Below are positions 3,164 through 64,000 of a DNA stretch of 64,000 nucleotides, piece after piece. This stretch comes from a virus. Position numbers and translations under genes: made by a program. The DNA lies in IMG/VR virus record IMGVR_UViG_3300037187_000003, positions 7,418 through 71,417 of that record. One strand, 5' to 3'. Under the pieces are notes generated by a model. The model made no database searches. It was given only the letters and a program-made list of their open reading frames with translations, and was not told the DNA's origin. The first letter of the stretch is position 1; every line of letters begins with the position of its first letter.

Positions 3164-3886
3164 CTACTCGACCGGCTGTAGAATATCGACCGGGTATGGC
3201 GTGACGCTCAGCGTCCCAGCGAATTGCACGGGCACTTGAACGGTTGGGTTGATCTGCAATTCCAAATCGATGGAATACCTGGTCTCGAATTGCATCTCGG
3301 CATTGTCGAAGGCCAGTTGCCGCGGATCGCTGGTGTAGAGCGGCGCTATGGCTGGGTTTGCGGCGGCGAAGGCATCCACCGCATACTGATCGCGGAACAA
3401 CGTTGAGATGATCTGCGCGTTGTCGCCCGAGGCCGGCCCATGCACATCGAGTTGCACCGTGAACCGCGTCATTTGCAGGTTGCTACTCGTGCCTGCGGCC
3501 ATCGGCCCGCTGGGGATCGTCTGGGCCGGCGCTACGGTGTATGTGCCCGTTCCCCCGGTGCCAGAGCCAAATGCCGTGATGACCGTGCCCACGCCTACGC
3601 TGGGGCCGAAGACGGGGGCGTTTGGCAGGATGGTGCCGGATAGCACCGCGGCGACGGTGAGGGTCGGGCCGGAAATCGAGCCGGTGAAGGTGCAGTCGGT
3701 CGGCGTGTCGATGTTGGTGGCGAGGCGCAGTCGCAGCAGGGGCCACATCTCAATGAAGCTGGCCGCGGCCGGTTCCGGCACTCGGTTATCCTGGCCTCGG
3801 ATGATTTCGATGCCGGGCAGCATTCCTTGCAGGACTGTGGTCAGGGCCGTGAAGACGGCTGATTCGGTGAGGGCGACGGTGGGCAT
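3164..3886 (-). CDS. tail terminator/neck protein with inserted beta domain
   Basis: RGQDNRVPEP, VQLDVHGP and PLYTSDPRQ motifs; immediately upstream of the sheath gene. Confidence 0.7.
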   Translation of the reverse strand: MPTVALTESAVFTALTTVLQGMLPGIEIIRGQDNRVPEPAAASFIEMWPLLRLRLATNIDTPTDCTFTGSISGPTLTVAAVLSGTILPNAPVFGPSVGVGTVITAFGSGTGGTGTYTVAPAQTIPSGPMAAGTSSNLQMTRFTVQLDVHGPASGDNAQIISTLFRDQYAVDAFAAANPAIAPLYTSDPRQLAFDNAEMQFETRYSIDLELQINPTVQVPVQFAGTLSVTPYPVDILQPVE

Positions 3887-4326: not shown

Positions 4327-4538
4327 ATGCGTCGCCCCGGCCACGCGTCGCCCACGGAGCGCTTGCTGCTTGGCAGGCCGGAACTCGGGGCGGTCGCCAT
4401 GCCGGGGATAGCGTCTTTACCGCGACGCGCCTCGGATTCCGCGATCGCGATTGCTTGCCGTTCCGGCTTGCCCGCATTCCGTTCGGTTGCGATGTTCTTG
4501 GAAATCGTCGCCTGCGACTTTCCCGCTTCAAGTGGCAT
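4323..4538 (-). CDS. small basic head-module protein
   Basis: [38 protein letters not shown], a small motif family recurrent in phage head modules. Confidence 0.65.
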
Positions 4539-4728
4539 TGTCTGCGTCCTGTTCCAGCCGATCCGCAAGCGCGAGTAGATCGGTAATGTCTGCCCACTTA
4601 GTCCCGTCCGCAGCCTCCACGACGGGAATATTCCGGAACGATGCGGCCAGCTTGCGTTGCATCGCGCTTAGTGTTGCGTGGAGTGACGAGGCATCGATTT
4701 CGATTGTGATTGTGTCCACCATCGCCAT
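4528..4728 (-). CDS. hypothetical protein
   Basis: 66-aa ORF coupled within the operon. Confidence 0.5.
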
Positions 4729-46156: not shown

Positions 46157-46233
46157 GCCTGATTAGCTCAGTTGGATAGAGCGCCGCGCTTCGGACGCGG
46201 AGGGCGCACGTTCGAGTCGTGCATTGGGCACCA
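46157..46233 (+). tRNA. tRNA-Arg(UCG)
   Basis: Full cloverleaf: acceptor GCCTGAT/ATTGGGC; D-arm GCTC/GAGC with A20; anticodon arm CCGCG-CTTCGGA-CGCGG; T-arm GCACG-TTCGAGT-CGTGC; encoded CCA. Confidence 0.93.
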
Positions 46234-48129: not shown

Positions 48130-48205
48130 TGCGGCTGTAGAGGACCGGCACCTCGGGAGTCTCATAAACTCCAAATAGCGGGTTCGATTCCCGCCGCCGC
48201 TACCA
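48130..48205 (+). tRNA. tRNA-Met(CAU), initiator-like but atypical
   Basis: D-stem GAGG/CCTC; anticodon arm GGAGT-CTCATAA-ACTCC; T-arm GCGGG-TTCGATT-CCCGC; ends ACCA. The acceptor stem has a 1:72 mismatch and one bulge. Confidence 0.85.
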
Positions 48206-49384: not shown

Positions 49385-49413
49385 TTGCATAGTGCGGGGA
49401 TGCGAGATATATC
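49385..49413 (+). promoter_or_regulatory. putative promoter of the RAMP cassette
   Basis: TTGCAT-N17-TATATC in an AT-rich intergenic region; TTATGCG occurs twice just upstream. Confidence 0.5.
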
Positions 49414-49445
49414 TAGCGGCACCAATATCTGCACGAGGTGCTAGG

Positions 49446-49691
49446 ATGGAGCCTGTGGAAGTTACCAGGAGACCCCGGCGCAAGTTGGAATATGTCCCCG
49501 ACGATCCGCTTTTGACGGCCGCCGAGACGGCCGCCGAACGCGGCCAAGCAGTCAGTACATTCTGGCGCGATGTGAAGGCAGGACGCCTTCCGCCGGCCTA
49601 TTATGTGTCGCCCCGGTGTCCACGGTGGCGCCGTTCGGAAGTCTTGGCCGGGATAGAGGCGACCCGCGCAGCGCCTGTTGCACAGAGGTAG
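49446..49691 (+). CDS. AlpA/excisionase-like HTH regulator
   Basis: GAGG RBS; LLTAAETA...VSTFWRDVKAGRLPP...RWRRSEV. Confidence 0.8.
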   Translation: MEPVEVTRRPRRKLEYVPDDPLLTAAETAAERGQAVSTFWRDVKAGRLPPAYYVSPRCPRWRRSEVLAGIEATRAAPVAQR

Positions 49692-49693
49692 AA

Positions 49694-50368
49694 ATGGCCC
49701 GCACTCCTAAGCCACTTACCGAAGCCCCCGCCGAGCAGATCACCATCAAACCGCCCAATATCAGGTCTCTTGAGATCGGGATTATCGGGATTGCCCCGCT
49801 GATGATTTGTCGGTTCAGCGCAAAGGCGATGGAACAGATGATGGCTACCCATCAAGCGGGTTCCACGGGCCGCACGAAGAAAGTGCGGGTAGCTCGCGAC
49901 TTCGATGCCGACTTCAACGGAGCGCGACATATCGCTGCCGATGGCTGGGATGGCATCCATGCTGCGGCGTTTCGCAATGGCATGATTTCGGCGTGCCGTC
50001 TGGTCGGCTTCAAGATGACGATCGCCAAACTGTCGGTTTTCGTTGACCCGGATGGTTTCGACGTGGTGGACGGCGTGCCTCTGGTCCGGATCATCAGCGA
50101 CAGCGCTCCGGCGAAGCGCATCATGCACACGCGCAACGCGACCGGCGTCATCGACCTTCGGGCGCGGCCAGCGTGGGATAAATGGTCCTGCAATCTCCGC
50201 ATCAACTATGATGCGGATCAGTTCACGGCGACGGATGTCGTCAATCTGCTTTCCCGCGTCGGCGCACAAGTCGGCGTTGGGGAGGGGCGGCCAGATAGCC
50301 GCTCAAGTGCCGGGATGGGGTTTGGTATGTTCCGGCTGGCTACCGCCGTCGATGAGGCGGCGGCGTGA
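49694..50368 (+). CDS. solo RAMP/Cas7-like RNA-binding protein (Vipr-like)
   Basis: N-terminal strand IGIIGIAPLMI; helix GIHAAAFRNGMISA (compare Cas7/Csm3 IPGSSLKGALR); C-terminal Gly-rich loop GVGEGRPDSRSSAGMGFGMF. The repeat array starts at the next base after its stop codon. Confidence 0.8.
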   Translation: MARTPKPLTEAPAEQITIKPPNIRSLEIGIIGIAPLMICRFSAKAMEQMMATHQAGSTGRTKKVRVARDFDADFNGARHIAADGWDGIHAAAFRNGMISACRLVGFKMTIAKLSVFVDPDGFDVVDGVPLVRIISDSAPAKRIMHTRNATGVIDLRARPAWDKWSCNLRINYDADQFTATDVVNLLSRVGAQVGVGEGRPDSRSSAGMGFGMFRLATAVDEAAA

Positions 50369-50618
50369 GGCAGGCGGCGTGGGGTTATGCGTCGTTCGGC
50401 GCCGCACCGCACGCATCGGCACGGCAGGCAAGCCACGACATCGGAGGGCACCATCTGGCCTGGCTCGGCAGGCGTCGCTTCGATTCGCGTCGCACGTCGC
50501 GGAGGGGCGTGGCAGGCGTGGCTTCGGATCGCGGCGCACGGAACGCCAACGCTCGGCAGGCTGCGCTTGGCAACGGACAGCGTTGCCCGGCGTGGCGTGG
50601 CTCGCTGCGGAATAGCAC
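50369..50618 (+). ncRNA. phased pentamer array: 5 units of GGCA + (SGY-NN)x8-12, putative guide RNAs
   Basis: GGCAGGC at 50369, 50423, 50467, 50511 and 50555 (spacing 54, 44, 44, 44, all 4+5n). Of 46 pentamers, position 1 is G/C in 42, position 2 is G in 39, position 3 is C/T in 38; positions 4-5 vary freely. Confidence 0.85.
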
Positions 50619-50623
50619 CAGGA

Positions 50624-50645
50624 GGCGGGAACCGCCGCGAGGCGG
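50624..50645 (+). other. GC-rich hairpin closing the array
   Basis: CCGCC-GCGA-GGCGG with a GNRA loop (50632-50645); alternative fold GGCGG-GAA-CCGCC. Confidence 0.55.
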
Positions 50646-50685
50646 GCAACGTCCATAAGTCCTTCCAATTTACAAGTTATTAAGA

Positions 50686-51327
50686 ATGCTAACTCAGACC
50701 CAGCGTGAACATCTGGAACTGATCCGCGCCTCCGCTGGCGGCACGCTGGCCCCGCAGGATGTGCTAACCGACGCACGCAATCCGAACTCGCCGCTGCACG
50801 ATCTGTTCCTCTGGAACGACAGCGAGGCGGCGGAAGCATATCGGCTGATCCAGGCACGCGAGGTTGTTCGCGTCGTGGTGCGGATGGCTCCGCGCCCCGC
50901 CCAGGAGACGACGCGGGTTGTGGTGAAGCGCGCCGAGCCACGAGCGTCACGCCCAGCCGTAACTGTGGTACCACGAGATCGAGAGGCGGCGACCTTCAAG
51001 GCGATCAGTGAAGGTATTGATCGTCTTGCAGCGGACCACGAAACTCCGCATTGGCAATTATTATTCGCTGAATTTCGCACATTACTGGCGAAACACACCC
51101 CAGCATCTTTGCTGCCTAGAATCCGCAATCGCAAGGATGGCGCATCCAATTATGCCGAAGGCGAGCCGGAGGCTGCTGATCTGGACCGCATCACGGCTTG
51201 GACAAAAGCAAACGCCCCAGACCTAAGATTCCGCGACTGGGAGGATTTGCGCCGGGTGAATGCACGCCGAGAAATGATGGGTTTCCCATGGTTCAAGCGA
51301 CCTTTGGGAAGGGGCGCAAGAACATAG
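50686..51327 (+). CDS. conserved partner protein of the RAMP/array locus
   Basis: GGTLAPQDVLTDARNPNSPLHDLFLWNDSEAAEAYRLIQAR domain, co-oriented directly after the array. Confidence 0.8.
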   Translation: MLTQTQREHLELIRASAGGTLAPQDVLTDARNPNSPLHDLFLWNDSEAAEAYRLIQAREVVRVVVRMAPRPAQETTRVVVKRAEPRASRPAVTVVPRDREAATFKAISEGIDRLAADHETPHWQLLFAEFRTLLAKHTPASLLPRIRNRKDGASNYAEGEPEAADLDRITAWTKANAPDLRFRDWEDLRRVNARREMMGFPWFKRPLGRGART

Positions 51328-51338
51328 GCCGCAGCATG

Positions 51339-51515
51339 TCACCCCACCCGATCCACCCACACCGGCCCGTCGCGCGTCATAGCGCGATCCTGCACCCGAT
51401 CGCACCGCGTGCACCAGCGGAGGTCGCCGTCCTCGATCCAGTCGTGACCATGCGCCCGGCACCACATGGCTTTGCCGGCGCCGGTCAGCATGTCGAGGCA
51501 GTCGGTGAGGGGCAT
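51339..51515 (-). CDS. small zinc-finger protein (DUF1660-like)
   Basis: Hand-translated WCRAHGHDW...WCTRC. Confidence 0.6.
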   Translation of the reverse strand: MPLTDCLDMLTGAGKAMWCRAHGHDWIEDGDLRWCTRCDRVQDRAMTRDGPVWVDRVG

Positions 51516-54042: not shown

Positions 54043-56430
54043 TCACGGCACTGGAGCCGCCAACAGCAGCCCACTGCCGGACGAGATCGCCGGGCTGAAC
54101 AGACTCGTCAGACCAACCTCGCCCATAGTGTTATCAGCACCCGAGTTGTTTGGCGATCCGAAGAAATATCCTTGTGGTATTGCCCCGTTCCCATCTCGCA
54201 GGTTTAGCACCGCTAATTCGCTGCAATATGTGCTCACCGACTCCCAGTGGTTCGCAGAGATGGGGCCTATGATCGGTCCCCATGTTTGGTAGTTCGAGCC
54301 ACCAGTCGGATCAAACAGCATCATAACCCAGCCATTCGAGCCAACATACGGCAAGTATACAGTGGTCAAGCATGTGCTTCCGGGCGGGACAAGGGTCGTG
54401 TTGTGGCCTGTGATAAACTGCGATGGATTCCCGATCGCATAAATTGTTGATGGTTTGGTAACAAGCGTCGTCTCGCCGCTCCATGACGCCGCCGAGGATG
54501 GAGTCATACTGGACCGCTGGACGATGCGACTGTTTAATCTATGATAAGTTAGAACCATCGCGCCAGAGGCATTAATCGACAGATAAGGGTCTCCGCTGTT
54601 ATCACTGTTTGCTACCAGATTATTACATACCACCGTCCAACTCGAACTAAGATAGTTTCCAGGTGTTGTGCGCCATATTGAAATAGTTGTATTTGTGAAA
54701 GCCGAAGCAGCGTATTCTAAAGACATGTAAACATAGCCATCAGAATAAAGGCACAAACCACAACATTCGTATCCGTAGTTGGTACCCGTAGGTGCGATTG
54801 TAGAACCAGTGACCTGCGTCCAGGTCAGCCCCTTTCCGGAATATGGGCATGTGAAGAATGTCACCGCCTCTTGTGGCGTGGCATTGCCGATAGTGGATAC
54901 GCCAACGAATTGTGTGCCGTCGTCAATTACCATCATGCCGTTGACTTCGTTAGCAGAAAAACCATCCCAGGGTACCGGTTTTATCAGAGGATTGGCCGGG
55001 CACTGCGTCCAAAATGGCAACGCATTAGCAACTTGATAGGTATAAAGCACTGCGTCGGATGCCGATTGATAGAAGACTACCGCAGTTCCACCCTGTAGCG
55101 CGTAAGGCGACGATGAGTCAGTTGCGGTGAGCGCTACCTGTTGCAATGCAGACCATGTTGCTGAAGAGGTAAGCCACTTGCCGTCCGAAGCGCGGTTAAT
55201 CGAGACTCCAAGTGAGACGGTCGTTGTGCCGGATGCCGTGAAATAGCAAGTATAAACGTCTCCGGTGGTCAGTGTGGTGTTCGATGTGCCGAGAGATGTA
55301 ATTGTCGTGAACGTCGAGCCTAATGCGCTGATCTTTTGTAAATAGACGGAGTATGTTTGGCTGCTACCCCTGGCAATTCCGACATTGTAACCGTTTAATG
55401 ACGCACTACCATTTACCGTCTGCACTCCGCACGCTACATTCATAGCGCTGTTGCTTGGTTGCGTTGTGCTAACGAATGCCATGGAAAAAGTAATGGCTAC
55501 GCTGGAAGCGTTCGTGCCCGGTAACAGCGCCATAGGGTTTGTGGAGTTTGTGCTCGAATTGTAAAGGTATGCTGTGTATTTTGGGTTTCCAGTATTGCCG
55601 CACAAAAAGTTCGAGGTCATCGCTATTATCTCAGGTGGCAATGCCGGAGCCATTGTTGACGCCAAATTCATCGTGTAGGTAGAAGGCGGCGGGGATGTGG
55701 TGGCGGGCTGAAACACAGCTATGACTGCCGCCACATCGCTGGAGCCAGTCCAACTCCATGTGGGGGATATCGTTGAAGGCGACGTGCCAGGTTGAACCAG
55801 ATAAGCTGCACACGACCCGATATTTTTACCTCCTGATAGCGTGGTTTGTCCAAACGCTGTGAAGCTGTCATTTATGGCGAATGTTCCAGTCCCTCCCGTT
55901 CCTAGCGCAAGACCAGCGACAATCAATGACCTTGGGTTTGTCGGCGTAATAGACGGGAAGGTGACTGAGGTCGCCGACGCGGCAATTACGCCGGTCTGCA
56001 CGTCCGCCGCTATGGCTGCGGCCCCGGCCCACGCCTGGACCTGCATATTGCCGTAGATGTTCGATGCTCCGACAATGGTTAGTGTAAAGGTGTGGCTGCT
56101 ACTGGTAGCCGGATTTTGGCAATAATATATCGTCGCCTGAGACGACTGGGACGCGGACTTGACGACTTGCCGTGGTGTCCAAACATTTGCCTGGCTGTCG
56201 GATAGGACGCCTGGCATGTCTGCACCATACTGTGTGCAGAGAATTACAATTAACCCTGCGCCTATCGTATTTGCGCCGGAGGTGGTAAATGTTCCGCCAC
56301 CAGATGGTGAAGAAGCAAACGTGGTTGAAATCGGAGATGATCCGAATCCAGCCTCAGCTTGCTTCGGCATGGCCGCAAGTACAGCGCCGGCAGCAACACT
56401 GGCCATCAGGGATCGGCGGGAGATGTCCAT
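54043..56430 (-). CDS. Tat-signal, Ser/Thr-rich protein with C-terminal beta-propeller glycosidase-like domain
   Basis: MDISRRSLMASVAAGAVLAAMPKQAEA (twin-arginine plus AxA); WTQCPANPLIKP..WD, LTWT and GDP motifs; lower GC. Confidence 0.7.
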   Translation of the reverse strand: MDISRRSLMASVAAGAVLAAMPKQAEAGFGSSPISTTFASSPSGGGTFTTSGANTIGAGLIVILCTQYGADMPGVLSDSQANVWTPRQVVKSASQSSQATIYYCQNPATSSSHTFTLTIVGASNIYGNMQVQAWAGAAAIAADVQTGVIAASATSVTFPSITPTNPRSLIVAGLALGTGGTGTFAINDSFTAFGQTTLSGGKNIGSCAAYLVQPGTSPSTISPTWSWTGSSDVAAVIAVFQPATTSPPPSTYTMNLASTMAPALPPEIIAMTSNFLCGNTGNPKYTAYLYNSSTNSTNPMALLPGTNASSVAITFSMAFVSTTQPSNSAMNVACGVQTVNGSASLNGYNVGIARGSSQTYSVYLQKISALGSTFTTITSLGTSNTTLTTGDVYTCYFTASGTTTVSLGVSINRASDGKWLTSSATWSALQQVALTATDSSSPYALQGGTAVVFYQSASDAVLYTYQVANALPFWTQCPANPLIKPVPWDGFSANEVNGMMVIDDGTQFVGVSTIGNATPQEAVTFFTCPYSGKGLTWTQVTGSTIAPTGTNYGYECCGLCLYSDGYVYMSLEYAASAFTNTTISIWRTTPGNYLSSSWTVVCNNLVANSDNSGDPYLSINASGAMVLTYHRLNSRIVQRSSMTPSSAASWSGETTLVTKPSTIYAIGNPSQFITGHNTTLVPPGSTCLTTVYLPYVGSNGWVMMLFDPTGGSNYQTWGPIIGPISANHWESVSTYCSELAVLNLRDGNGAIPQGYFFGSPNNSGADNTMGEVGLTSLFSPAISSGSGLLLAAPVP

Positions 56431-56437
56431 GTTCGTC

Positions 56438-58333
56438 TCAGTGCGAGAAGTTTGTTGATGGAGAAAGCAGAATATGCGTCGAGTCCTTGACCACGTATGC
56501 CAAGGCGTCGATCGCATTCGCGCCGGTTGACAGCGTGATCGCTGCCGTGCCACCTGGAGCAAGATAACTGTTGCCCCAGATGTTGATCAGATCACTGCCG
56601 GTCGGGGACTGGATTACGTAGATCACGCCGTGCGTTCCAGCAACCGGCGTCGCACTGGGATTTGCCAGCGTGCACGGGCACGACGCATGGACGAGGGTAA
56701 TCGAGTAGTCGTTGTTGGAACCGTCCGGCGTGAAGGTCACAGTCGAGATTGATAACGTGGTAATGCTGGCGGACTGCTGGGCAGACCAGACGTTGGTGCC
56801 GTTCAGCAGCCCGCAGTTGGCGCCTGACGTGCCCACCGGGCAGATTCCGCCAGTTGCTCCTACGTTATCGCCCAGCGCCGTCGTGACGCCCGCCCCCAGG
56901 CTGGTGAGCCCTGTGCCACCGTTTCCTGCACCAAGCGTGCCCGTCACGCCACCATTGCCTGAACTGCCCAATGCAACTGCGGCCATATAGGAACCGCTGA
57001 TGGTTCCGCTGGTGATGATCGAGCCCGGAAGATTTGGTATCACGGAAGTTGCCAATAGACCGCCAGAGCCGAGCACGGGGATCGTGCCGATCGTAGTTCC
57101 GGTTGCCGTCGAGCACCCCGTCGCGCCGTTGGATAGATCACCACACGCGATCGCCTGCGTACCGCCCAGGCTGACGGAGTGCCCGGCCAGGGTCATACTG
57201 CTGTTCGCGAGCGCGGCATTCGGCACAGCCTCGTAGGTCACCGTGCCGCCACCGCTCGCGCTCGTGACTACTGGAACCGTGTTGACGCTCGGGCCAGAAG
57301 GATAGGCCACGCCATCGACCTTGCCCGTCGTGGTGGTGATCGCGGTAGCGCCCGATCCGGTCGTATCGCCCGAGAGGGTGATCGTCTGATTACCGGTCAG
57401 ATAGCTCTGATTGCTCGCCGCGGTGACAAGGCCCTTCGCGTTGACCGTCAGTCCTTGGAACGTGCCGACGTTGGTGTTGACCGTCGCGAGCGTGGTGGCG
57501 AGCGTGCCGGATGTTGTCAGATCGCCAGACAAGTTGCCGCTAGTGATTGATGTTGTGCCGCTGAATACTGCCAGGTTTCCGCTGACTGGACTACCCGTCG
57601 TGGTAACATTTCCGCCACCCGCGCTGCCGTTCGCCGCCGCGGTAATGCGACCCTGCTGGTCAACCGTGATATTCGCTGCGGTGTAGCTGCCCGGCGTGAC
57701 GGTAGTGCTGGCGAGATATGACGCGGCGATCGGCGTGCCCTGCCATACGCCTGTCCCGATCGTGCCCACGCTGGTCAGCGACGATGCGGTCACCCCCGCC
57801 GCCAGCGTCGATCCCGTCAGCGTGCCGGCGGGCGCAGCGCTCAGTGTGGCGAGCGATCCCAGGCCGCCGATCTGCCCCGCCGTGATGCCCGTCAGCGCCG
57901 CTCCAGAGCCGCTGGGCGTCAGGTAATCCGTCCCGGCGGTTGCTGCTGCCAACGCGCCCGCAGAGCCTTTCAGCACGCCACTGGGCGTGACGGATAGGGT
58001 CAATGCGGGCGTGGTGGTGGGGTTGGCGATCGACCACGAAAAGCCGTTGGTATTGACCCCCGAGGCGCTGGTGACCGTGCCTGATCCGCCGCCGAGCGAA
58101 ACCTGCACCGTGCCGTTGTAATACTGCGGAACGTGCGTGCTCTGATTGAGGCTGAGATCACCGAGTTGTGGCGTCGGATAGCCGGTGTTACTGGGCGGCC
58201 CGAGGTTGATCGGGCCGCCCATGACCAACGAGCCGAACGTGACGCCGCCGCAATCGCTCGGCGTGGTCGGGCAGACAGCGCCGGCCTCGCCAGCCAGGAG
58301 GCACAGCAGCGCGGCTATCCAGAAGAGGCGCAT
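56438..58333 (-). CDS. tail-fibre-like protein with N-terminal signal peptide
   Basis: Starts MRLFWIAALLCLLAGEAGA; fibre repeats GTVTS, VTPGSY..ANITVDQQGRITAA, TVNAKGLVTAA, LSGD and NGGTG. Confidence 0.75.
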   Translation of the reverse strand: MRLFWIAALLCLLAGEAGAVCPTTPSDCGGVTFGSLVMGGPINLGPPSNTGYPTPQLGDLSLNQSTHVPQYYNGTVQVSLGGGSGTVTSASGVNTNGFSWSIANPTTTPALTLSVTPSGVLKGSAGALAAATAGTDYLTPSGSGAALTGITAGQIGGLGSLATLSAAPAGTLTGSTLAAGVTASSLTSVGTIGTGVWQGTPIAASYLASTTVTPGSYTAANITVDQQGRITAAANGSAGGGNVTTTGSPVSGNLAVFSGTTSITSGNLSGDLTTSGTLATTLATVNTNVGTFQGLTVNAKGLVTAASNQSYLTGNQTITLSGDTTGSGATAITTTTGKVDGVAYPSGPSVNTVPVVTSASGGGTVTYEAVPNAALANSSMTLAGHSVSLGGTQAIACGDLSNGATGCSTATGTTIGTIPVLGSGGLLATSVIPNLPGSIITSGTISGSYMAAVALGSSGNGGVTGTLGAGNGGTGLTSLGAGVTTALGDNVGATGGICPVGTSGANCGLLNGTNVWSAQQSASITTLSISTVTFTPDGSNNDYSITLVHASCPCTLANPSATPVAGTHGVIYVIQSPTGSDLINIWGNSYLAPGGTAAITLSTGANAIDALAYVVKDSTHILLSPSTNFSH

Positions 58334-58689
58334 ACCTGCACTCCATTGAGCCAGAGTTGATTCAGCACCAACGGATCGACCAAAGGCAGATTGCCCGCGC
58401 CAAGCGCGAGCAACGCCGCCGCCGTGATGATCCCGAAATAGATAGGCGGCGCGCTCGGGTTGGGCGTGGTGCCAGGGGTCACATTGACGAAGATGCCGTT
58501 CGCCCAGAGGGCGCCCGCCGTCAGCGGCTCGATGGTGGGCCATCCGGCCGGGCTGGTGAGGATGAGCGCGATGCCGTTCAGTCCCAGCCCCGTGCCAATA
58601 GCGGGCCGCGGCCGATACCACAGCATCGCAGGCGCGTGGATCGTCCGGCGCTGGCGGCCGACCGTGATGGTGGCAGGGAGGGTCGTCAT
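58315..58689 (-). CDS. hypothetical tail-region protein
   Basis: 124 aa with repeated LW.NG motifs. Confidence 0.6.
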   Translation of the reverse strand: MTTLPATITVGRQRRTIHAPAMLWYRPRPAIGTGLGLNGIALILTSPAGWPTIEPLTAGALWANGIFVNVTPGTTPNPSAPPIYFGIITAAALLALGAGNLPLVDPLVLNQLWLNGVQVCASSG

Positions 58690-58784
58690 GGCTTCGCGGA
58701 TTCAGGCGCGGGGGCTTTCGCAGCCTCCCGCTGTCGCGCCACGTCCTGCATCGCCGCGATGGCGAGGCGTTTCATGGGCATGTC

Positions 58785-61700
58785 CTATCCACCATTTGTG
58801 ACTGCGACAACATATCCAGGGCAGCCGTTGCCGCCCGCGCCACCGGCCACCGATCCGGCGCCCCCACCACCGCCAGCGCAGCCATAGGCCCCCGCAGCTC
58901 CTGTGCCACCAGCGCCTCCTGTGCCACCACTGTTGGCGCCGCCGCCTCCCGCGCCGCTCGTGTTCGGATAAAGGCCACCTGAACCTGTGGCGCTGCCACC
59001 AGCCCCCGCTGTGCCTGTTGTGGCGCTGGTTCCCGCTGAGGCCGCCGATGTCCCTATTGCGACCGCGCCTGCGCCGCCGTTGACCACCGAACCAACCAGC
59101 ATGGTGCCGCCAGAGCCAGAACCACTGATGCATGGAGCGGCTTGGCCGTTGCTCGCGGCGGTCAGTGACGAACTGCTGCCAGCCGTGGACTGCGTGCCCT
59201 GAATGTTCCCTGATCCAACGCTACCAGCGCTTCCTATGATTGAGCCGTAGGCTCCGTTCCCAGCGCCCGCCGCCGATGATGTCGCATCGCTGCCGTCAAT
59301 TCCGACACCAGCGCTCGCGCCACCATAACTCTGTGCAGAAGGCTGGCCTGGGTAGCCTCGTCCGCCTGTGTAGGCCGTGTAGTAGCTGCCGAAGGTGGTA
59401 TCATGCCCGACAGCACCCACAGTTCCAGCACCGCTCGTGCCTCCTGCTCCTCCAGTTCCACCAGAGCCAACCGTTACTGAGACCGGCGAACTGAACGTGG
59501 ATGTCAGAGCGGTCACATCCATGCACCCCCCACCGCCGCCGACAGCGCCGCCAGAAACGGCCGCTAACCCGTACGTTCCCTGTCCGCCTCCTGGTCCTCC
59601 CGGACCGCCAGCGATCAAACGAAGCCGCGTCACGCAGGTAATGCCTACTTCACTGCACCAACTAGGCACGGTCCATGTGCCGCTGGTGGTGAAGGTCTGC
59701 ACATCCTGGAAGGGGACGACCACGGGCGGCGCCGCAATACCGAGCGCCGGGTCAACGCCGACGACTGTGTTGCCCGTGGCGACAATCGCCCCGGCCTGCA
59801 CGTTGTTGGTCACGCCATTGTAGTGATGGATGCCATATGCCTGTGTCGCAGTTGCTTGATCGTCGCTGGCATCGAGGCCGTCGATTGTGACATTCTCCTG
59901 CAAGCCGGGCTGTCCGAACGTGCAGCTTCCAGCGAGGTTGATTCCCACCGCGCCAGTCGTTCCGGGGAGGCCGGTTGCCGGCCAATTGTAAGCCTGCCCA
60001 TTATTCTTCATGTGGACCCCAGCGAACGAAATGTCCCGGCCTCCGCAGATGAACACCCCGCCCGATCCGTTCCCGCTGTAGGAGTCTCCGACAAACTTTA
60101 CGCCGATATTGTGATCGCCCTCCCAGCCATTACCAGAGGCGCCTGAGCAGTCTTCTCCGATGAACTCGGGGTTGAAACTATATGAAATCCCCTCGCACGC
60201 AGATGGGGCGAGGTTGTATGCCTGGAATTCTAGGCCATCTTCCTTGAAGATATTGTTCTGGAAAATGAAGCCAGATGTCGCCTCTATAAACAGCGGGCTC
60301 GACCATGTGTGCCGGAACGTGTTGTGGATGAATCGTCCGTCTGTGTTCGCGAACCATGCGCCAAACGCCACCCACACTGCGTAGCCCGACCCTGATCCTT
60401 GTCCCACCGTGAACGGAATGGAGATACCGGTGGCCATCGCTTGCGGTGTGGACACGGTTGCACTGCTCGATATTGTCCAGGGACCGCTGCCACTGACAAT
60501 CGTTGTGCCGCGTGGAATACCCGTTCCAGGGCCGGTCAGAATCTGGCCCGCAACAACCGCACCGCTCGTCACGGTGCCGCTCAACGTGGTGCCGCTGATT
60601 GTGGCTCCGCTCAGAACTGCACCGGCCAGATTGCCTGTCAGCGGCGATGCCAATGTCGCCGCGTATGTCGCCGTGGCCGAGGCTATTGTCGGGCCACTTG
60701 TCACGAGATCAGCAGCCGGAACGCCAGCGGGCGTCCCGCTTACAGCGGTGAGATTACCGGGGATGACACCAATTGCCGAGCAGTTGAATGTAACATTGGT
60801 GTAGCACGAAAACGTCAGTGTGCTGCTGCCGGACGACTGTGGGCCTGACGTGGTTGCTGCGCCAGAGCCAGTCGTAAACAGATTCATTCCGAGATTGTCG
60901 AATCTGTTATTGATGAAGGTCGGCTTCTGGATTCCGGTCTGAGCGGCGATGCCGGTTCCGGAGTTTATCGGGCAGCGCAGAGGTGCGGTTATGTTTATCG
61001 TATAAGGAGCAGTAGACCCGACGATGCTGCTGATCTTTGTTCCTGGCGTCAGACATCCGATGTTGCTTCCGATCTGAAGCACGTCCTGTGCAACCAGATT
61101 GAGAATGCTTGAAGTCTGGAATGACGTGTCACCTCCGACCTGGTTCTGCGTCGTCACGAAAGCTGGTGTGAACCGCACTGTGCCAACTGCCAGCGTATCC
61201 GCAAGCGGCTTCTGAAAGCAGACCACTCCGGTTCCGGAGTTGATTGAAGTCACATAGAGGTCAGGGTCCTCCTCGGTATCGACAAGATAGGCGCCCACCA
61301 CGAGACCAGTCGGAACGCTGGTCAGCGTCATGCAGGATGGTGCCGAGACCATCGTTGTGCTGGCCACCAACTGACTTGCCGATACGGTCCAGCTTGATCC
61401 ACTACCACTGCTGATCGTCGTTCCGGCCGCTACTCCGAGTATGATCGTCTGGGTGGCAGAGATCGTCCCGGAGACGCCACTCACAGAGAGCGCAGTCCCA
61501 GCACCTCCAGAGCCGTTAGAGATGGTGCCTGTGAACGACGCAAGCTGAACCGATGACGCCAGTGTACCCGCAATGAGGCTGCCACCACCAGCCCAGACCG
61601 CCGCGCCACCAGCCGTGTTGATGAACTGATCGTCCACAAATCGCGGCTCGACCATCGGCGGATTGAGCCCGATCAGGCCGTTTTCATTCGACGTGACACC

Positions 61701-62333
61701 AACATTGCCATCAAATATGAGTCCCTGAAACGTGAGGTAATTGTTGCCCGTCGCATTGAACAGCGGGCGGTTGGAGGCGTTGGTGGCGCCAATGCGGATC
61801 GTCGCGGTGCCGTATGCAGCATACAGCGTCAGATCGTTGCAGCCACTCGGTATCGTCGCTGCCTCGTTGAATACATAGAGACCGGCAGGGAAGAACACCG
61901 CCAGCGGCGGCGATGCAGCACAGGCCGTTGTCAGGGCGGCGGCAACGGCAGGCTCGGCGTCAGTGGCGCCTGTTCGGTCGGCATTGACCGCGACGCTACC
62001 ATTAAGCGTGGTTGCGCCGGCAAAATAAGCGTTGCCGCTGCTGTCCAGCGTGGCGGCGCTGGTGCCCGCAAACCCGCCATTGTTGAACTGGATCGCGCCT
62101 GGGTTGCCGCTCGGCCCGGCGGGGAGACCGGATGCGGATAGCGTTTGGTTGGGATACGTGCCACCGAGCGACAGCCCCGCACCGATCGCCACGCCGCCCG
62201 GCTTACAATTCTGCGCGCCGCCCATCAGTGCCGTCGTGGGGAATCCGCGGCTATCGAACGGCCCGCCGCACGTCTGCGCCGCCGCCGCAACCGGGACGAG
62301 CCACAGCAGCAGTGCAACTACGAAACGACCCAC
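58785..62333 (-). CDS. tailspike/fibre-like protein (pectate-lyase-like beta-helix, Gly-rich C-terminus) with signal peptide
   Basis: Starts MGRFVVALLLWLVPVAAAA; D.TGATD..A and VFFPAGLY beta-helix cap; TFTTSGTWTVP followed by a Gly-rich domain. Confidence 0.8.
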   Translation of the reverse strand: MGRFVVALLLWLVPVAAAAQTCGGPFDSRGFPTTALMGGAQNCKPGGVAIGAGLSLGGTYPNQTLSASGLPAGPSGNPGAIQFNNGGFAGTSAATLDSSGNAYFAGATTLNGSVAVNADRTGATDAEPAVAAALTTACAASPPLAVFFPAGLYVFNEAATIPSGCNDLTLYAAYGTATIRIGATNASNRPLFNATGNNYLTFQGLIFDGNVGVTSNENGLIGLNPPMVEPRFVDDQFINTAGGAAVWAGGGSLIAGTLASSVQLASFTGTISNGSGGAGTALSVSGVSGTISATQTIILGVAAGTTISSGSGSSWTVSASQLVASTTMVSAPSCMTLTSVPTGLVVGAYLVDTEEDPDLYVTSINSGTGVVCFQKPLADTLAVGTVRFTPAFVTTQNQVGGDTSFQTSSILNLVAQDVLQIGSNIGCLTPGTKISSIVGSTAPYTINITAPLRCPINSGTGIAAQTGIQKPTFINNRFDNLGMNLFTTGSGAATTSGPQSSGSSTLTFSCYTNVTFNCSAIGVIPGNLTAVSGTPAGVPAADLVTSGPTIASATATYAATLASPLTGNLAGAVLSGATISGTTLSGTVTSGAVVAGQILTGPGTGIPRGTTIVSGSGPWTISSSATVSTPQAMATGISIPFTVGQGSGSGYAVWVAFGAWFANTDGRFIHNTFRHTWSSPLFIEATSGFIFQNNIFKEDGLEFQAYNLAPSACEGISYSFNPEFIGEDCSGASGNGWEGDHNIGVKFVGDSYSGNGSGGVFICGGRDISFAGVHMKNNGQAYNWPATGLPGTTGAVGINLAGSCTFGQPGLQENVTIDGLDASDDQATATQAYGIHHYNGVTNNVQAGAIVATGNTVVGVDPALGIAAPPVVVPFQDVQTFTTSGTWTVPSWCSEVGITCVTRLRLIAGGPGGPGGGQGTYGLAAVSGGAVGGGGGCMDVTALTSTFSSPVSVTVGSGGTGGAGGTSGAGTVGAVGHDTTFGSYYTAYTGGRGYPGQPSAQSYGGASAGVGIDGSDATSSAAGAGNGAYGSIIGSAGSVGSGNIQGTQSTAGSSSSLTAASNGQAAPCISGSGSGGTMLVGSVVNGGAGAVAIGTSAASAGTSATTGTAGAGGSATGSGGLYPNTSGAGGGGANSGGTGGAGGTGAAGAYGCAGGGGGAGSVAGGAGGNGCPGYVVAVTNGG

Positions 62334-63052: not shown

Positions 63053-64000
63053 CTACCACTTAATCTTGACGTAGCCCGGCGCTCCGGCGCCACCAGCATT
63101 CGATCCGCCCGCACCGCCGCCGCCGCCGACCCCACCAAACAGCCCGGTGACACCAACTCCGGAACCGGCGGCGCCTGATCCTCCGACCCCGAAAACGGTG
63201 CTACCGCCCGCGCCGGCAAATGACACACCAGCCGCCGACACATCGCCGTTGACGCCAGAGGTCGCGCCACCCCCGCCGGCCGCCCCGCCTGATCCGCCGC
63301 CGGCCCCTGCTGTTCCTCCGGACCACGTGATCAACGCGCCGACGTTGGTGCTACTGCCATTGACGCCGTTCCGGCTGCCTGATGTGCCGCCAGCACCGCC
63401 CACACCGATTGTTATCGTATAGGCGGTCCCTGGCATAACGGTTGCGGAATAACCGCGGATGCTATCGCCACCACCACCACCGCCGCCGCCGTTGCTGCCA
63501 CTATTGCCGCAACCCCCACCCGCCCCACCGCCCGCACCGTCAATCAAGGCCGACGTTACGCCCTGGGGGCATGTCCACGAATAGGTTCCGGGTGTCGTCC
63601 AACTCGCTTCACCATGCGGAACCGCCGACAGATTCGCCCACCCCGCCCCACCCGTATCCGGGTCCGTCACATTCGCATCGACCAGCGACAGCCACCAATT
63701 CGTCTGCGACGCTGCGAGCAACAGCGCGCCCTTGGGATAGCCGGTGATATTGGTCGAAAGCGTCGCGTCATAGAAGATCGGACCCCCGACTTGCTGCCAC
63801 TGGTTCCAGAGCGAGAAATACTGAAACGCCGCGTTGAAATCCGCGATGTCGGGCGGAATGCCGCCCGCGCCTGGATTGTATGAGTTGATCGGATTGAAGC
63901 CGGTCGATTGTGAAGGCGCGGCGCCCGTCCCGGTCGCCTGTACCGGCGCGTTCACATAGCCGGATGTCGCGTTGATGCCCCAGGCATACGCGAACTTATA
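63053..64000 (-). CDS. Gly-rich tail fibre protein (5' end outside the window)
   Basis: Frame is open to 64000 (YKFAYAWG...); GGIPP..DFN, GYPKGA and TPGTYSWTCP motifs, then a Gly-rich domain. Confidence 0.8.
   Translation of the reverse strand, partial: YKFAYAWGINATSGYVNAPVQATGTGAAPSQSTGFNPINSYNPGAGGIPPDIADFNAAFQYFSLWNQWQQVGGPIFYDATLSTNITGYPKGALLLAASQTNWWLSLVDANVTDPDTGGAGWANLSAVPHGEASWTTPGTYSWTCPQGVTSALIDGAGGGAGGGCGNSGSNGGGGGGGGDSIRGYSATVMPGTAYTITIGVGGAGGTSGSRNGVNGSSTNVGALITWSGGTAGAGGGSGGAAGGGGATSGVNGDVSAAGVSFAGAGGSTVFGVGGSGAAGSGVGVTGLFGGVGGGGGAGGSNAGGAGAPGYVKIKW

What the first reader, a model, noticed from the sequence alone, without database searches (positions are those of the whole stretch)
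50369..50618. Array grammar: GGCA + n x (SGY-NN), five units each with a different NN string
Parsed by hand. U1 (50369): GGCA GGCGG CGTGG GGTTA TGCGT CGTTC GGCGC CGCAC CGCAC GCATC GGCAC. U2 (50423): GGCA GGCAA GCCAC GACAT CGGAG GGCAC CATCT GGCCT GGCTC. U3 (50467): GGCA GGCGT CGCTT CGATT CGCGT CGCAC GTCGC GGAGG GGCGT. U4 (50511): GGCA GGCGT GGCTT CGGAT CGCGG CGCAC GGAAC GCCAA CGCTC. U5 (50555): GGCA GGCTG CGCTT GGCAA CGGAC AGCGT TGCCC GGCGT GGCGT GGCTC GCTGC GGAAT AGCAC. The 4-nt GGCA breaks the 5-nt phase at each boundary, as expected of a processing or cap signal. The NN positions are 49/92 A+T, well above the GC-rich surroundings, so they look information-bearing rather than slippage-derived. 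Constant and variable information are interleaved, unlike the repeat-spacer blocks of CRISPR.
Basis: seen in the sequence. Interest (0 to 1): 0.9.

Follow-up and report, generated by a model that had tools for sequence, protein, structure and literature searches.

The report
Phage VIPR guide-RNA array
The pentamer array is the guide-RNA array of a phage-encoded VIPR system, a CRISPR-related RNA-guided DNA silencer first described in 2026, and at least two of its guides appear aimed at genes of a rival phage family.

Summary
The 5-nt period, the 44/54-nt units and the 49/92 A+T count all reproduce, and no shuffle reaches the signal.

It is the guide-RNA (vrRNA) array of a VIPR system, described in bioRxiv 10.64898/2026.04.26.720920. 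It is of the "staggered" kind, in which neighbouring guides overlap by 1 nt; that explains the GGCA phase break and the 5n+4 unit lengths.

- **Conservation.** 16 of 16 IMG/VR loci and 41 of 44 genome loci with a homologue carry same-strand pentamer arrays.
- **Targets.** Under the published 1-nt-skip rule, U5 matches a tail-fibre gene (15 exact hits against 1 for a control). U2 matches the start of the major-head gene of the same GC-rich phage family. U4 and U3 fall on VapE-primase and terminase motifs. U1 has no hit, and there is no self-target.

Processed RNAs were not shown. This scan found VIPR arrays before on other DNA. Verdict: a new member of a known kind.

The parts
49392..49691 (+). 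Small HTH/excisionase-like gene (99 aa), co-oriented and ending 2 nt before vipr. It may belong to the operon, but it is not a defining part.
   Evidence: phrog_66 'excisionase and transcriptional regulator', E 9.6e-6. No Pfam, NCBIfam or PADLOC match.
49694..50368 (+). vipr: a 224-aa Cas7-like RAMP protein that would coat the guide RNA, one protomer per pentamer. The start is taken at the ATG that follows the upstream gene.
50370..50424 (+). vrRNA unit U1: GCAGG plus 10 pentamers. NN string: GG GG TA GT TC GC AC AC TC AC. It starts 1 nt after the vipr stop codon, and its last G is shared with U2.
   Evidence: No target found.
50424..50468 (+). vrRNA unit U2: GCAGG plus 8 pentamers. NN string: AA AC AT AG AC CT CT TC.
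   Evidence: The 1-nt-skip pattern hits 33 IMG/VR stretches. Twelve of them lie at the start codon of a major-head gene (phrog_10) in GC 0.63-0.67 contigs.
50468..50512 (+). vrRNA unit U3: GCAGG plus 8 pentamers. NN string: GT TT TT GT AC GC GG GT. The 44-nt repeat copies that span U3 and U4 are 70% identical.
   Evidence: Of 18 exact hits, 5 lie on a large-terminase motif (phrog_15). The total count is at chance level.
50512..50556 (+). vrRNA unit U4: GCAGG plus 8 pentamers. NN string: GT TT AT GG AC AC AA TC.
   Evidence: Of 25 exact hits, 7 lie in frame on the VFIGTTNS motif of VapE-like primase-helicase genes (PF05272).
50556..50620 (+). vrRNA unit U5: GCAGG plus 12 pentamers. NN string: TG TT AA AC GT CC GT GT TC GC AT AC. 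The 3' end is uncertain.
   Evidence: The first 9 NN give 15 exact IMG/VR hits, all in one tail-fibre(-assembly) gene. All 12 NN match 20-23 of 24 bases. A reversed-order control gives 1 hit.
50621..50685 (+). Non-periodic spacer between the array and the next gene, holding two 13-nt direct repeats (50622-50634 and 50639-50651). Its role is unknown.
   Evidence: No terminator-like or promoter-like site in the scan.
50686..51327 (+). Candidate vap (vipr-accessory protein), 213 aa. Its N-terminal three-helix domain of about 67 aa is conserved.

Best explanation
The stretch is the guide-RNA array of a phage-encoded VIPR (Viral Interference Programmable Repeat) system of the staggered kind.

**Inferred from the published mechanism.**
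- The array is transcribed with vipr and cut into five vrRNAs at the GG-C-A-GG junctions, where two fixed triplets are separated by one base instead of two.
- Vipr protomers (49694..50368) polymerise along each vrRNA, one per pentamer. They bury the fixed triplet (here S-G-Y) and present the NN pair.
- The NN pairs base-pair with double-stranded DNA, skipping every third target base, and the bound complex silences transcription.
- The 213-aa downstream gene is the accessory Vap.

**Shown here.**
- The grammar of the array.
- The Vipr homology and fold.
- The conserved linkage of gene and array.
- Sequence matches of guides U5 and U2 to a tail-fibre gene and the major-head gene start of one GC-rich phage/provirus family.
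- Matches of U4 and U3 to conserved VapE-primase and large-terminase motifs, with the skipped base on the codon wobble position.
- The absence of self-targets.

The likely biological role is to silence rival phages or proviruses in the same host.
For: 1. **Grammar.**
   - Period 5 and period 44 exceed all 1000 shuffles.
   - Fixed and variable positions are as described above.
   - All four unit lengths equal 4 mod 5. So do 95 of 136 GCAGG-to-GCAGG intervals in the window plus the 14 IMG/VR loci parsed (L002 and L012, printed as the same sequence as L001 and L011, were left out), and 186 of 311 in the genome loci.
   - This matches the 1-nt overlap in the Fig. S18 legend.
2. **Protein.**
   - Profile A1 hits only the SUSP1 Vipr chain, E 3.1e-7.
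   - The G-loop reads GxGxGRP, and the thumb Arg-Pro is invariant in the family.
3. **Linkage.**
   - 16 of 16 IMG/VR loci and 41 of 44 genome loci with a homologue carry period-5 arrays.
   - GCAGG against its complement CCTGC in the arrays: 149 to 2 and 375 to 6. The arrays are therefore always on the vipr strand.
   - The same grammar stands beside the homologue in Cyanophage Cy-LDV1 and Mycobacterium phage Brocalys.
4. **Targets under the 1-nt-skip rule.**
   - U5 (18 specified bases): 15 exact hits, all in one gene family (phrog_863/6202 in the two ORFs tested). The full guide matches 20-23 of 24. The reversed-order control gives 1 hit.
   - U2: 12 of 33 hits lie at the start codon of a phrog_10 head gene.
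   - Records G001 and G002 carry both the U2 site (0 and 1 mismatch) and the U5 site (2 and 1 mismatches). The tool's backwards controls give 0.
   - U4: 7 of 25 hits are in frame on VFIGTTNS of PF05272 genes with differing wobble bases.
   - U3: 5 of 18 hits are on a phrog_15 terminase motif.
5. **No self-target.** The best own-genome matches are 69-75% of NN bases, within the permuted-guide null and below the preprint's 80% threshold.
6. **RNA.**
   - Contigs of two metatranscriptome runs from different studies are identical to 50186-50443 and 50263-50422. They bridge the vipr 3' end into the array.
   - The array RNA has no fold beyond shuffles (z 0.17), as expected of a protein-held guide.
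Against: - **No processed small RNA was seen.** The RNA evidence is contigs only, without strand, and DNA carry-over in those libraries cannot be excluded.
- **The array is the most degenerate of its clade.** Only 16 of 46 pentamers are strict YNNGG, and position 4 is C in 41% of the 34 pentamers of units U1-U4.
- **The sequence link to the solved Vipr is short.** It rests on 55 aligned residues, and SUSP1 W178, which stacks on the second G, is Gly throughout this clade.
- **U1 has no target.**
  - 0 exact hits in IMG/VR and in the metagenome contigs.
  - 0 hits with up to 3 mismatches in five target records.
- **The U3 and U4 hit totals are near chance.** 18 and 25 are about what 16 specified bases give by chance. 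Only the concentration on one motif argues for meaning, and I ran no control scan for them.
- **The Vap candidate is unplaced.** It has no recognisable fold or family, so its role and the VIPR type (I-VII) could not be assigned. The type tables are in supplements that I could not read.
- **No promoter-like site** was found.
Confidence: 0.9

Rival explanations
1. It is a relic VIPR array. The locus descends from a VIPR system, but the guides have decayed and no longer work, so the periodicity is a fading inheritance.
For: Conformity to YNNGG is low (16 of 46) and is the weakest position-4 G (55%) among 44 arrays compared. U1 has no target. No processed RNA was shown.
Against: The vipr and vap ORFs are intact. 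U5 and U2 keep exact or near-exact matches to one phage family. Each unit still ends in a well-formed CNNGG followed by GCAGG. The one strain difference seen in the array (50493 C>T) keeps the pyrimidine at position 1.
Confidence: 0.06
2. It is a double-stranded DNA site: iterons, a partition site or a packaging site to which a phage protein binds cooperatively every 5 bp or every 44 bp.
For: A 44-bp spacing is about four helical turns. The stretch is intergenic, and arrays of short repeats are typical of such sites (established knowledge, recalled).
Against: - The variable NN positions match foreign genes under a rule that has no meaning for a DNA-binding site.
- The strand is always that of vipr (149 to 2 and 375 to 6).
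- Unit lengths vary from 19 to 84 nt in relatives but mostly keep 5n+4 (95 of 136 intervals).
- The portal and probable terminase genes lie about 35 kb away.
- The neighbouring protein has a Cas7 fold.
Confidence: 0.02
3. It is a TRAP-like regulatory leader: an RNA of triplets spaced by two bases that wraps an oligomeric RNA-binding protein to control translation of the downstream 213-aa gene.
For: Triplet plus 2-nt spacer is the TRAP binding grammar (recalled knowledge). The array lies directly upstream of the 213-aa gene.
Against: In relatives the arrays lie upstream of vipr, between the two genes, or after the second gene, so the position relative to the downstream gene is not kept. Target matches explain the NN content. 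The partner protein is Cas7-like, not TRAP-like.
Confidence: 0.01
4. It is a neutral slippage-derived repeat or an unrecognised coding region.
For: Several spurious ORFs cross the stretch in this GC-rich DNA.
Against: - A+T is 49/92 at NN against 18/138 at fixed positions. Slippage would copy whole units.
- The grammar is conserved across loci whose record titles name several phyla, with unrelated NN strings.
- No ORF passes GC3 or has a family match.
Confidence: 0.01

Closest known systems
VIPR systems with staggered vrRNA arrays (bioRxiv 10.64898/2026.04.26.720920, Fig. S18 legend; I read the Results, methods sections 18, 20 and 27, and the figure legends)
   Same: A phage-encoded two-gene locus with a RAMP-like Vipr. 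The array has a fixed triplet alternating with a variable dinucleotide. Adjacent guides overlap by 1 nt, which gives 5n+4 units, and there is no structured tail between units. NN strings match other mobile elements by the 1-nt-skip rule with the skip on codon wobble positions. There is no self-targeting.
   Different: - The preprint says only the ribozyme-interspersed and single-vrRNA architectures were confirmed by small-RNA sequencing; staggered arrays were not.
- Here the fixed triplet is relaxed to S-G-Y.
- I could not see the figure, the type table or the locus list, so I cannot say whether this clade, its GCAGG junction or its Vap is the one shown.
Type II VIPR of Escherichia phage SUSP1 (same preprint; structures in 10.64898/2026.04.26.720927, section 5 read; PDB 36pp)
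   Same: Vipr homology (E 3.1e-7). The thumb Arg (R138) and G-loop Arg (R179) are conserved. One protomer is expected per pentamer. There is a vipr plus one accessory gene.
   Different: - SUSP1 vrRNAs are separate transcripts of about 100 nt, with 9-16 YNNGG repeats and a conserved pseudoknotted 3' tail of about 40 nt. Here the units are 44-65 nt, abut each other and show no structure.
- W178 is Gly and D177 is Glu.
- The protein is not found by tblastn at the level of SUSP1 relatives (no Escherichia phage among 33 hits).
- The Vap is unrelated by any test I could run.
Class 1 CRISPR-Cas backbone (Cas7/Csm3 filament on crRNA)
   Different: There is no repeat-spacer array and there are no cas genes nearby. 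The guide information is non-contiguous (2 of every 5 nt) and the periodicity is 5 nt rather than 6. No PADLOC model matched the three proteins tested.
Non-canonical VIPR arrays found by entropy periodicity (bioRxiv 10.64898/2026.10.21.760802; passages only)
   Same: 5-nt periodic arrays with non-GGY triplets (for example GAC/NN, WGT/NN) next to Vipr-like folds. Relatives of this locus show AGC/AGT and GAC variants.
   Different: That paper reports ten repeats per array for its 21 non-canonical clusters. Here the repeat number runs from 8 to 12 and the units are chained.

Membership tests
VIPR system | Vipr protein: a RAMP fold (RRM core, thumb, glycine-rich loop) related to published Vipr proteins | tested here: met
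VIPR system | Tandem pentanucleotide repeats (YNNGG or a related consensus, at least 4 units) beside vipr, with a fixed triplet and a hypervariable NN | tested here: met
   46 pentamers in 5 units. Strict YNNGG 16 of 46, YNNSG 29 of 46, NNNNG 38 of 46. NN A+T is 49/92 against 18/138. The preprint accepts the related consensuses NNNGG, YNNNG and NNNNG.
VIPR system | An accessory vap gene in a minimal two-gene locus | tested here: inconclusive
   A conserved neighbouring ORF is present in 51 of 62 loci. Its identity with vap1-6 cannot be checked because the supplements are closed. The fold search is inconclusive.
VIPR system | vrRNAs are expressed, processed and bound by Vipr | not testable with these tools
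   Only weak support exists: RNA-library contigs of two studies bridge the vipr 3' end and U1. No ends, strand or binding could be shown.
VIPR system | NN strings match mobile-element DNA by the 1-nt-skip rule, and the system's own genome is not targeted | tested here: met
   U5: 15 exact hits in one gene against 1 for the reversed control, and 20-23 of 24 over the whole guide. U2: 12 hits at a head-gene start. Both sites occur in records G001 and G002. U4 and U3 are suggestive, and U1 has none. Self matches are 69-75%, below the 80% threshold.
VIPR staggered array architecture | Adjacent vrRNAs share 1 nt, so the end of one marks the start of the next | tested here: met
   Each unit ends CNNG-G-CAGG. 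The unit lengths 54, 44, 44 and 44 all equal 4 mod 5. The actual cleavage was not tested.
VIPR type II (SUSP1-like) | Separate vrRNAs, each with a conserved structured 3' tail of about 40 nt | tested here: not met
   Units abut without tails. The RNA fold energy equals that of shuffles, z 0.17. No Rfam family matched.
CRISPR-Cas | A repeat-spacer array with contiguous spacers, plus cas genes | tested here: not met
   The only repeats are 5-nt periodic units. No PADLOC model matched the three proteins tested.

The most novel reading that the evidence does not exclude
This widespread GCAGG-punctuated clade is found in cyanophage, mycobacteriophage and Gordonia phage records and in assemblies labelled with several bacterial phyla. 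It may work differently from the characterised type II systems in three ways.

- A vipr-array co-transcript may be cut at the single-base GG-C-A-GG junctions without any structured handle.
- A G-loop lacking the stacking Trp may tolerate S-G-Y triplets.
- Some guides may be written against codon positions 1-2 of invariant protein motifs (VapE VFIGTTNS, terminase VLLVTAGV). One 8-pentamer guide would then silence whole families of rival elements whatever their synonymous divergence.
Probability: 0.3. Interest if true: 0.5.

Novelty: new member of a known kind. Interest (0 to 1): 0.35.

Why it matters
It places a peat-metagenome myovirus-like phage in the newly described VIPR class. It also extends that class's targeting rule, by sequence evidence alone, to a clade distant from the characterised E. 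coli and Pseudomonas systems.

The predicted targets give a concrete, testable picture of phage-against-phage interference in an uncultured community. They are the head-gene start and a tail-fibre gene of one phage family, plus conserved primase and terminase motifs.

The same grammar sits unannotated in cultured, named phages (Cyanophage Cy-LDV1 and Mycobacterium phage Brocalys). In those the untested staggered-array processing could be examined at the bench.

It does not reveal a new kind of system.

Tried and rejected
- **First idea, before the literature search.** I considered a TRAP-like RNA wrapping a ring protein, or a small-terminase/pac site (note). I dropped both once the Cas7 fold, the Vipr hit and the target matches were in hand.
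- **RNA families and nearby RNA genes.** Rfam at gathering level found only two tRNAs, far from the array.
- **Tandem Repeats Finder.** It did not report the array, because the copies are too unlike.
- **Neighbour annotation.** Pfam, NCBIfam and PADLOC gave nothing on the neighbouring genes.
- **DNA-level search.** A DNA similarity search of 49400-51400 against phage records gave one weak hit, inside the vipr homologue of Cy-LDV1.
- **Single-protein search with the 213-aa gene.** It found no IMG/VR relative; tblastn on the loci in hand did.
- **Vap.**
  - No PDB relative by sequence or profile.
  - Foldseek gave nothing at E <= 0.001.
- **U1.** No exact hit in IMG/VR or the metagenome contigs, and none with up to 3 mismatches in five target records.
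- **U3 and U4 in the five target records.** No site with up to 2 mismatches.
- **Own tail-fibre-like gene (63053..63955).** It is not similar to the U5 target protein. The phage's own primase lacks the GTTN motif. So I saw no self/non-self contrast at a shared gene.
- **G-loop against triplet.** I looked for a link between the G-loop residue (E or A) and the array triplet (GG or AG). L010 and L013 fit, but L004, L033, L034, L039 and L046 do not, so I dropped the idea.
- **Strain variants.** Contigs of runs X2 and X5 differ from the window at one array position only, so they say nothing about NN turnover. The parts of the stretch without RNA-contig cover prove nothing.
- **Promoter scan.** No site found.
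- **Not in print.** I cannot say whether this clade, its Vap or its GCAGG junction is listed in the preprints, because the supplements are closed. 'Mycobacterium' and 'cyanophage' do not occur in the main text of 10.64898/2026.04.26.720920.
- **Rows dropped.**
  - In one search the duplicate loci L002 and L012 were left out.
  - In one search intervals over 100 nt were left out.
  - In one search only units of 19-100 nt with length 4 mod 5 were used, and loci with under 15 pentamers are shown without a logo.

Full report
**What is there.** The stretch 50369-50618 fills most of the 317-nt gap between two co-oriented genes, 49616..50368 and 50686..51327.

- Identity at lag 5 is 0.465 against 0.296 in 1000 dinucleotide-preserving shuffles (z 5.8). 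At lag 44 it is 0.50 (z 6.6). No shuffle reaches either value.
- Lags 39, 49 and 59 are high while 40, 45 and 50 are not. That is the signature of a 5-nt period reset by a 4-nt step.
- It is the only such stretch in the window and in the 71,417-base genome.
- Parsed from each GCAGG, the 46 pentamers have C at position 1 in 33, G or C at position 4 in 42, and G at position 5 in 38.
- The stretch is not coding by GC3 or by family search. As RNA it folds no better than shuffles (z 0.17).

**Relatives.** The upstream protein has homologues in 16 IMG/VR loci.

- All 16 carry period-5 arrays within about 1.5 kb. They are built of CNNGG, CNNAG or CNNGA pentamers punctuated by GCAGG.
- Of 136 GCAGG-to-GCAGG intervals in the window and 14 non-duplicate loci, 95 equal 4 mod 5.
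- A profile scan of one genome per species found 44 further loci in assemblies labelled with several bacterial phyla. Of these, 41 have arrays, and 186 of 311 intervals equal 4 mod 5.
- GCAGG outnumbers its complement in the arrays 149 to 2 and 375 to 6, always on the strand of the gene.
- Among named phage records, 33 hold a homologue annotated as hypothetical: 27 Mycobacterium, 5 Gordonia and 1 cyanophage.
- Cyanophage Cy-LDV1 and Mycobacterium phage Brocalys show the same grammar beside it.
- So the fixed parts and the strand are conserved while the NN strings and the unit number change.

**Identification.** My first idea was a triplet-plus-spacer RNA wrapped around an oligomer.

- A look-up of earlier notes of this scan and a full-text search, made in the same turn, both pointed to VIPR systems.
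- I read the Results, three methods sections and the figure legends of bioRxiv 10.64898/2026.04.26.720920. I also read section 5 of 10.64898/2026.04.26.720927 and passages of two October 2026 preprints.
- VIPR consists of three parts:
  - a RAMP-like Vipr protein;
  - one accessory gene (vap);
  - vrRNAs made of YNNGG repeats.
- One Vipr protomer binds each repeat. The GGY bases are buried and the NN pairs read double-stranded DNA while skipping every third base.
- The legend of Fig. S18 describes staggered arrays in which processed vrRNAs overlap by 1 nt. That is exactly what CNNG-G-CAGG and the 5n+4 lengths show.

**Tests of membership.** The true start of the upstream gene is most likely the ATG at 49694, giving 224 aa.

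- A 15-sequence profile hits a single PDB sequence, 'SUSP1 Vipr protein' (36pp_D), at E 3.1e-7. The single sequence gives E 0.11.
- The AlphaFold model (pLDDT 79) matches only CRISPR effector-complex entries (types III and VII) among the Foldseek rows with E <= 0.001.
- SUSP1 R138 and R179 are conserved. D177 is Glu or Ala, and W178 is Gly in every member.
- The downstream 213-aa gene has a conserved N-terminal domain and lies beside vipr in 51 of 62 loci. It has no family or fold that I could establish. I call it a candidate vap.
- The structured 3' tail of type II vrRNAs is absent, so the locus is not SUSP1-like. Its type could not be assigned without the supplements.

**What the guides read.** I turned each unit's NN string into a 1-nt-skip pattern.

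- **Own genome.** The best matches are 69-75% of NN bases. That lies within a permuted-guide null and under the preprint's 80% threshold.
- **U5 in IMG/VR.**
  - The first nine NN (18 specified bases) hit 15 stretches. All are in GC 0.62-0.68 contigs, at the same place of one gene, and antisense. The skipped base falls on the wobble position of ..DTTGTVFNQ...
  - The two ORFs tested are tail-fibre(-assembly) proteins.
  - All twelve NN match 20-23 of 24 bases.
  - The same dinucleotides in reversed order hit one stretch.
- **U2.**
  - It hits 33 stretches.
  - Twelve span the start codon of a gene of about 460 aa. The two ORFs tested are major head proteins.
  - Eleven are near-identical contigs hit in a translation-repressor-like gene.
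  - Ten are scattered.
- **Co-occurrence.** Records G001 and G002 hold both the U2 and U5 sites, and the backwards controls give none.
- **U4.** It hits 25 stretches. Seven are in frame on the VFIGTTNS motif of VapE-like primase-helicase genes with different wobble bases.
- **U3.** It hits 18 stretches. Five are on a large-terminase motif, with three ORFs tested.
- **Weight of U3 and U4.** These totals are near what 16 bases give by chance, so only the clustering on one motif is suggestive.
- **Double hit.** One VapE contig (L085) has U4 at 16/16 and U3 at 15/16.
- **U1.** It has no hit.

**Expression.** The phage occurs in peat and permafrost metagenomes. Contigs of two metatranscriptome runs from different studies are identical to 50186-50443 and 50263-50422, running from the end of vipr into the array. 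This fits co-transcription but is weak evidence: contigs carry no strand, and DNA may be present in such libraries. Two DNA runs differ from the window at one array position, 50493 C>T, which keeps the pyrimidine.

**Verdict.** The element is a VIPR guide-RNA array of the staggered kind, in a clade distant from the characterised systems and with a relaxed S-G-Y triplet. Its mechanism is inferred from the preprints. Shown here are the grammar, the protein homology and fold, the conserved linkage, and the target matches. The kind of system was published in 2026, and this scan has met it before on other DNA. The finding is therefore a new member of a known kind.

Noticed in passing
L011 3560-3940 and 4340-4680 (L012 is printed as the same sequence): Here the arrays use NNAGY pentamers, and 6 of the 7 GCAGG-to-GCAGG intervals equal 0 mod 5 (60, 65, 65, 70, 45, 60) instead of 4 (the seventh is 68). 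The 1-nt overlap therefore seems absent in this relative.
   Followed up: no
L010 4100-4700; L013 2140-2660; L015 4040-4540; L005 4200-4760: Relatives use other fixed triplets. Position 4 is A in 89% of pentamers in L010 and L013, and position 5 is A in 30-38% in L005 and L015. The G-loop residue at the SUSP1 D177 position (Ala or Glu) does not track this cleanly.
   Followed up: partly
L017 (Cyanophage Cy-LDV1) 3647-3860 and 4454-4615; L018 (Mycobacterium phage Brocalys) 2109-2340: These named phages carry unannotated GCAGG-punctuated pentamer arrays beside a 'hypothetical protein' that is a Vipr homologue. 27 Mycobacterium and 5 Gordonia phage records hold such a homologue.
   Followed up: partly
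window 50462-50549: The two 44-nt repeat copies that span U3 and U4 are 70% identical and share the first NN pairs. This looks like a duplicated guide that has since diverged.
   Followed up: partly
L085 1735-1757 and 2074-2096: One VapE-like primase gene matches U4 at 16/16 and, 339 nt upstream on the other strand, U3 at 15/16. My rough estimate of the chance of this after multiple testing is about 0.03.
   Followed up: partly
L107, L109, L110, L114, L116, L119, L124, L125, L128, L136, L137: Eleven near-identical GC 0.46-0.52 contigs match U2 exactly, inside a gene of about 150 aa (phrog_242 'translation repressor' in the one tested). This may be chance amplified by redundancy, or a second target.
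   Followed up: no
window 50493: This is the only difference in the array seen in two other metagenome runs. It is C>T at pentamer position 1, which keeps the pyrimidine. The vap gene has four differences over the same contigs.
   Followed up: no
window 46157-46233 and 48131-48201: There are two tRNA genes (Arg-TCG and Met-CAT) a few kb upstream of the VIPR cassette. Between them lies a 560-aa gene of phrog_1735, function unknown.
   Followed up: no
window 54043-62333: Three very large minus-strand ORFs (839, 727 and 1182 aa) have no PHROG match. They lie in a region whose GC falls to 0.52.
   Followed up: no
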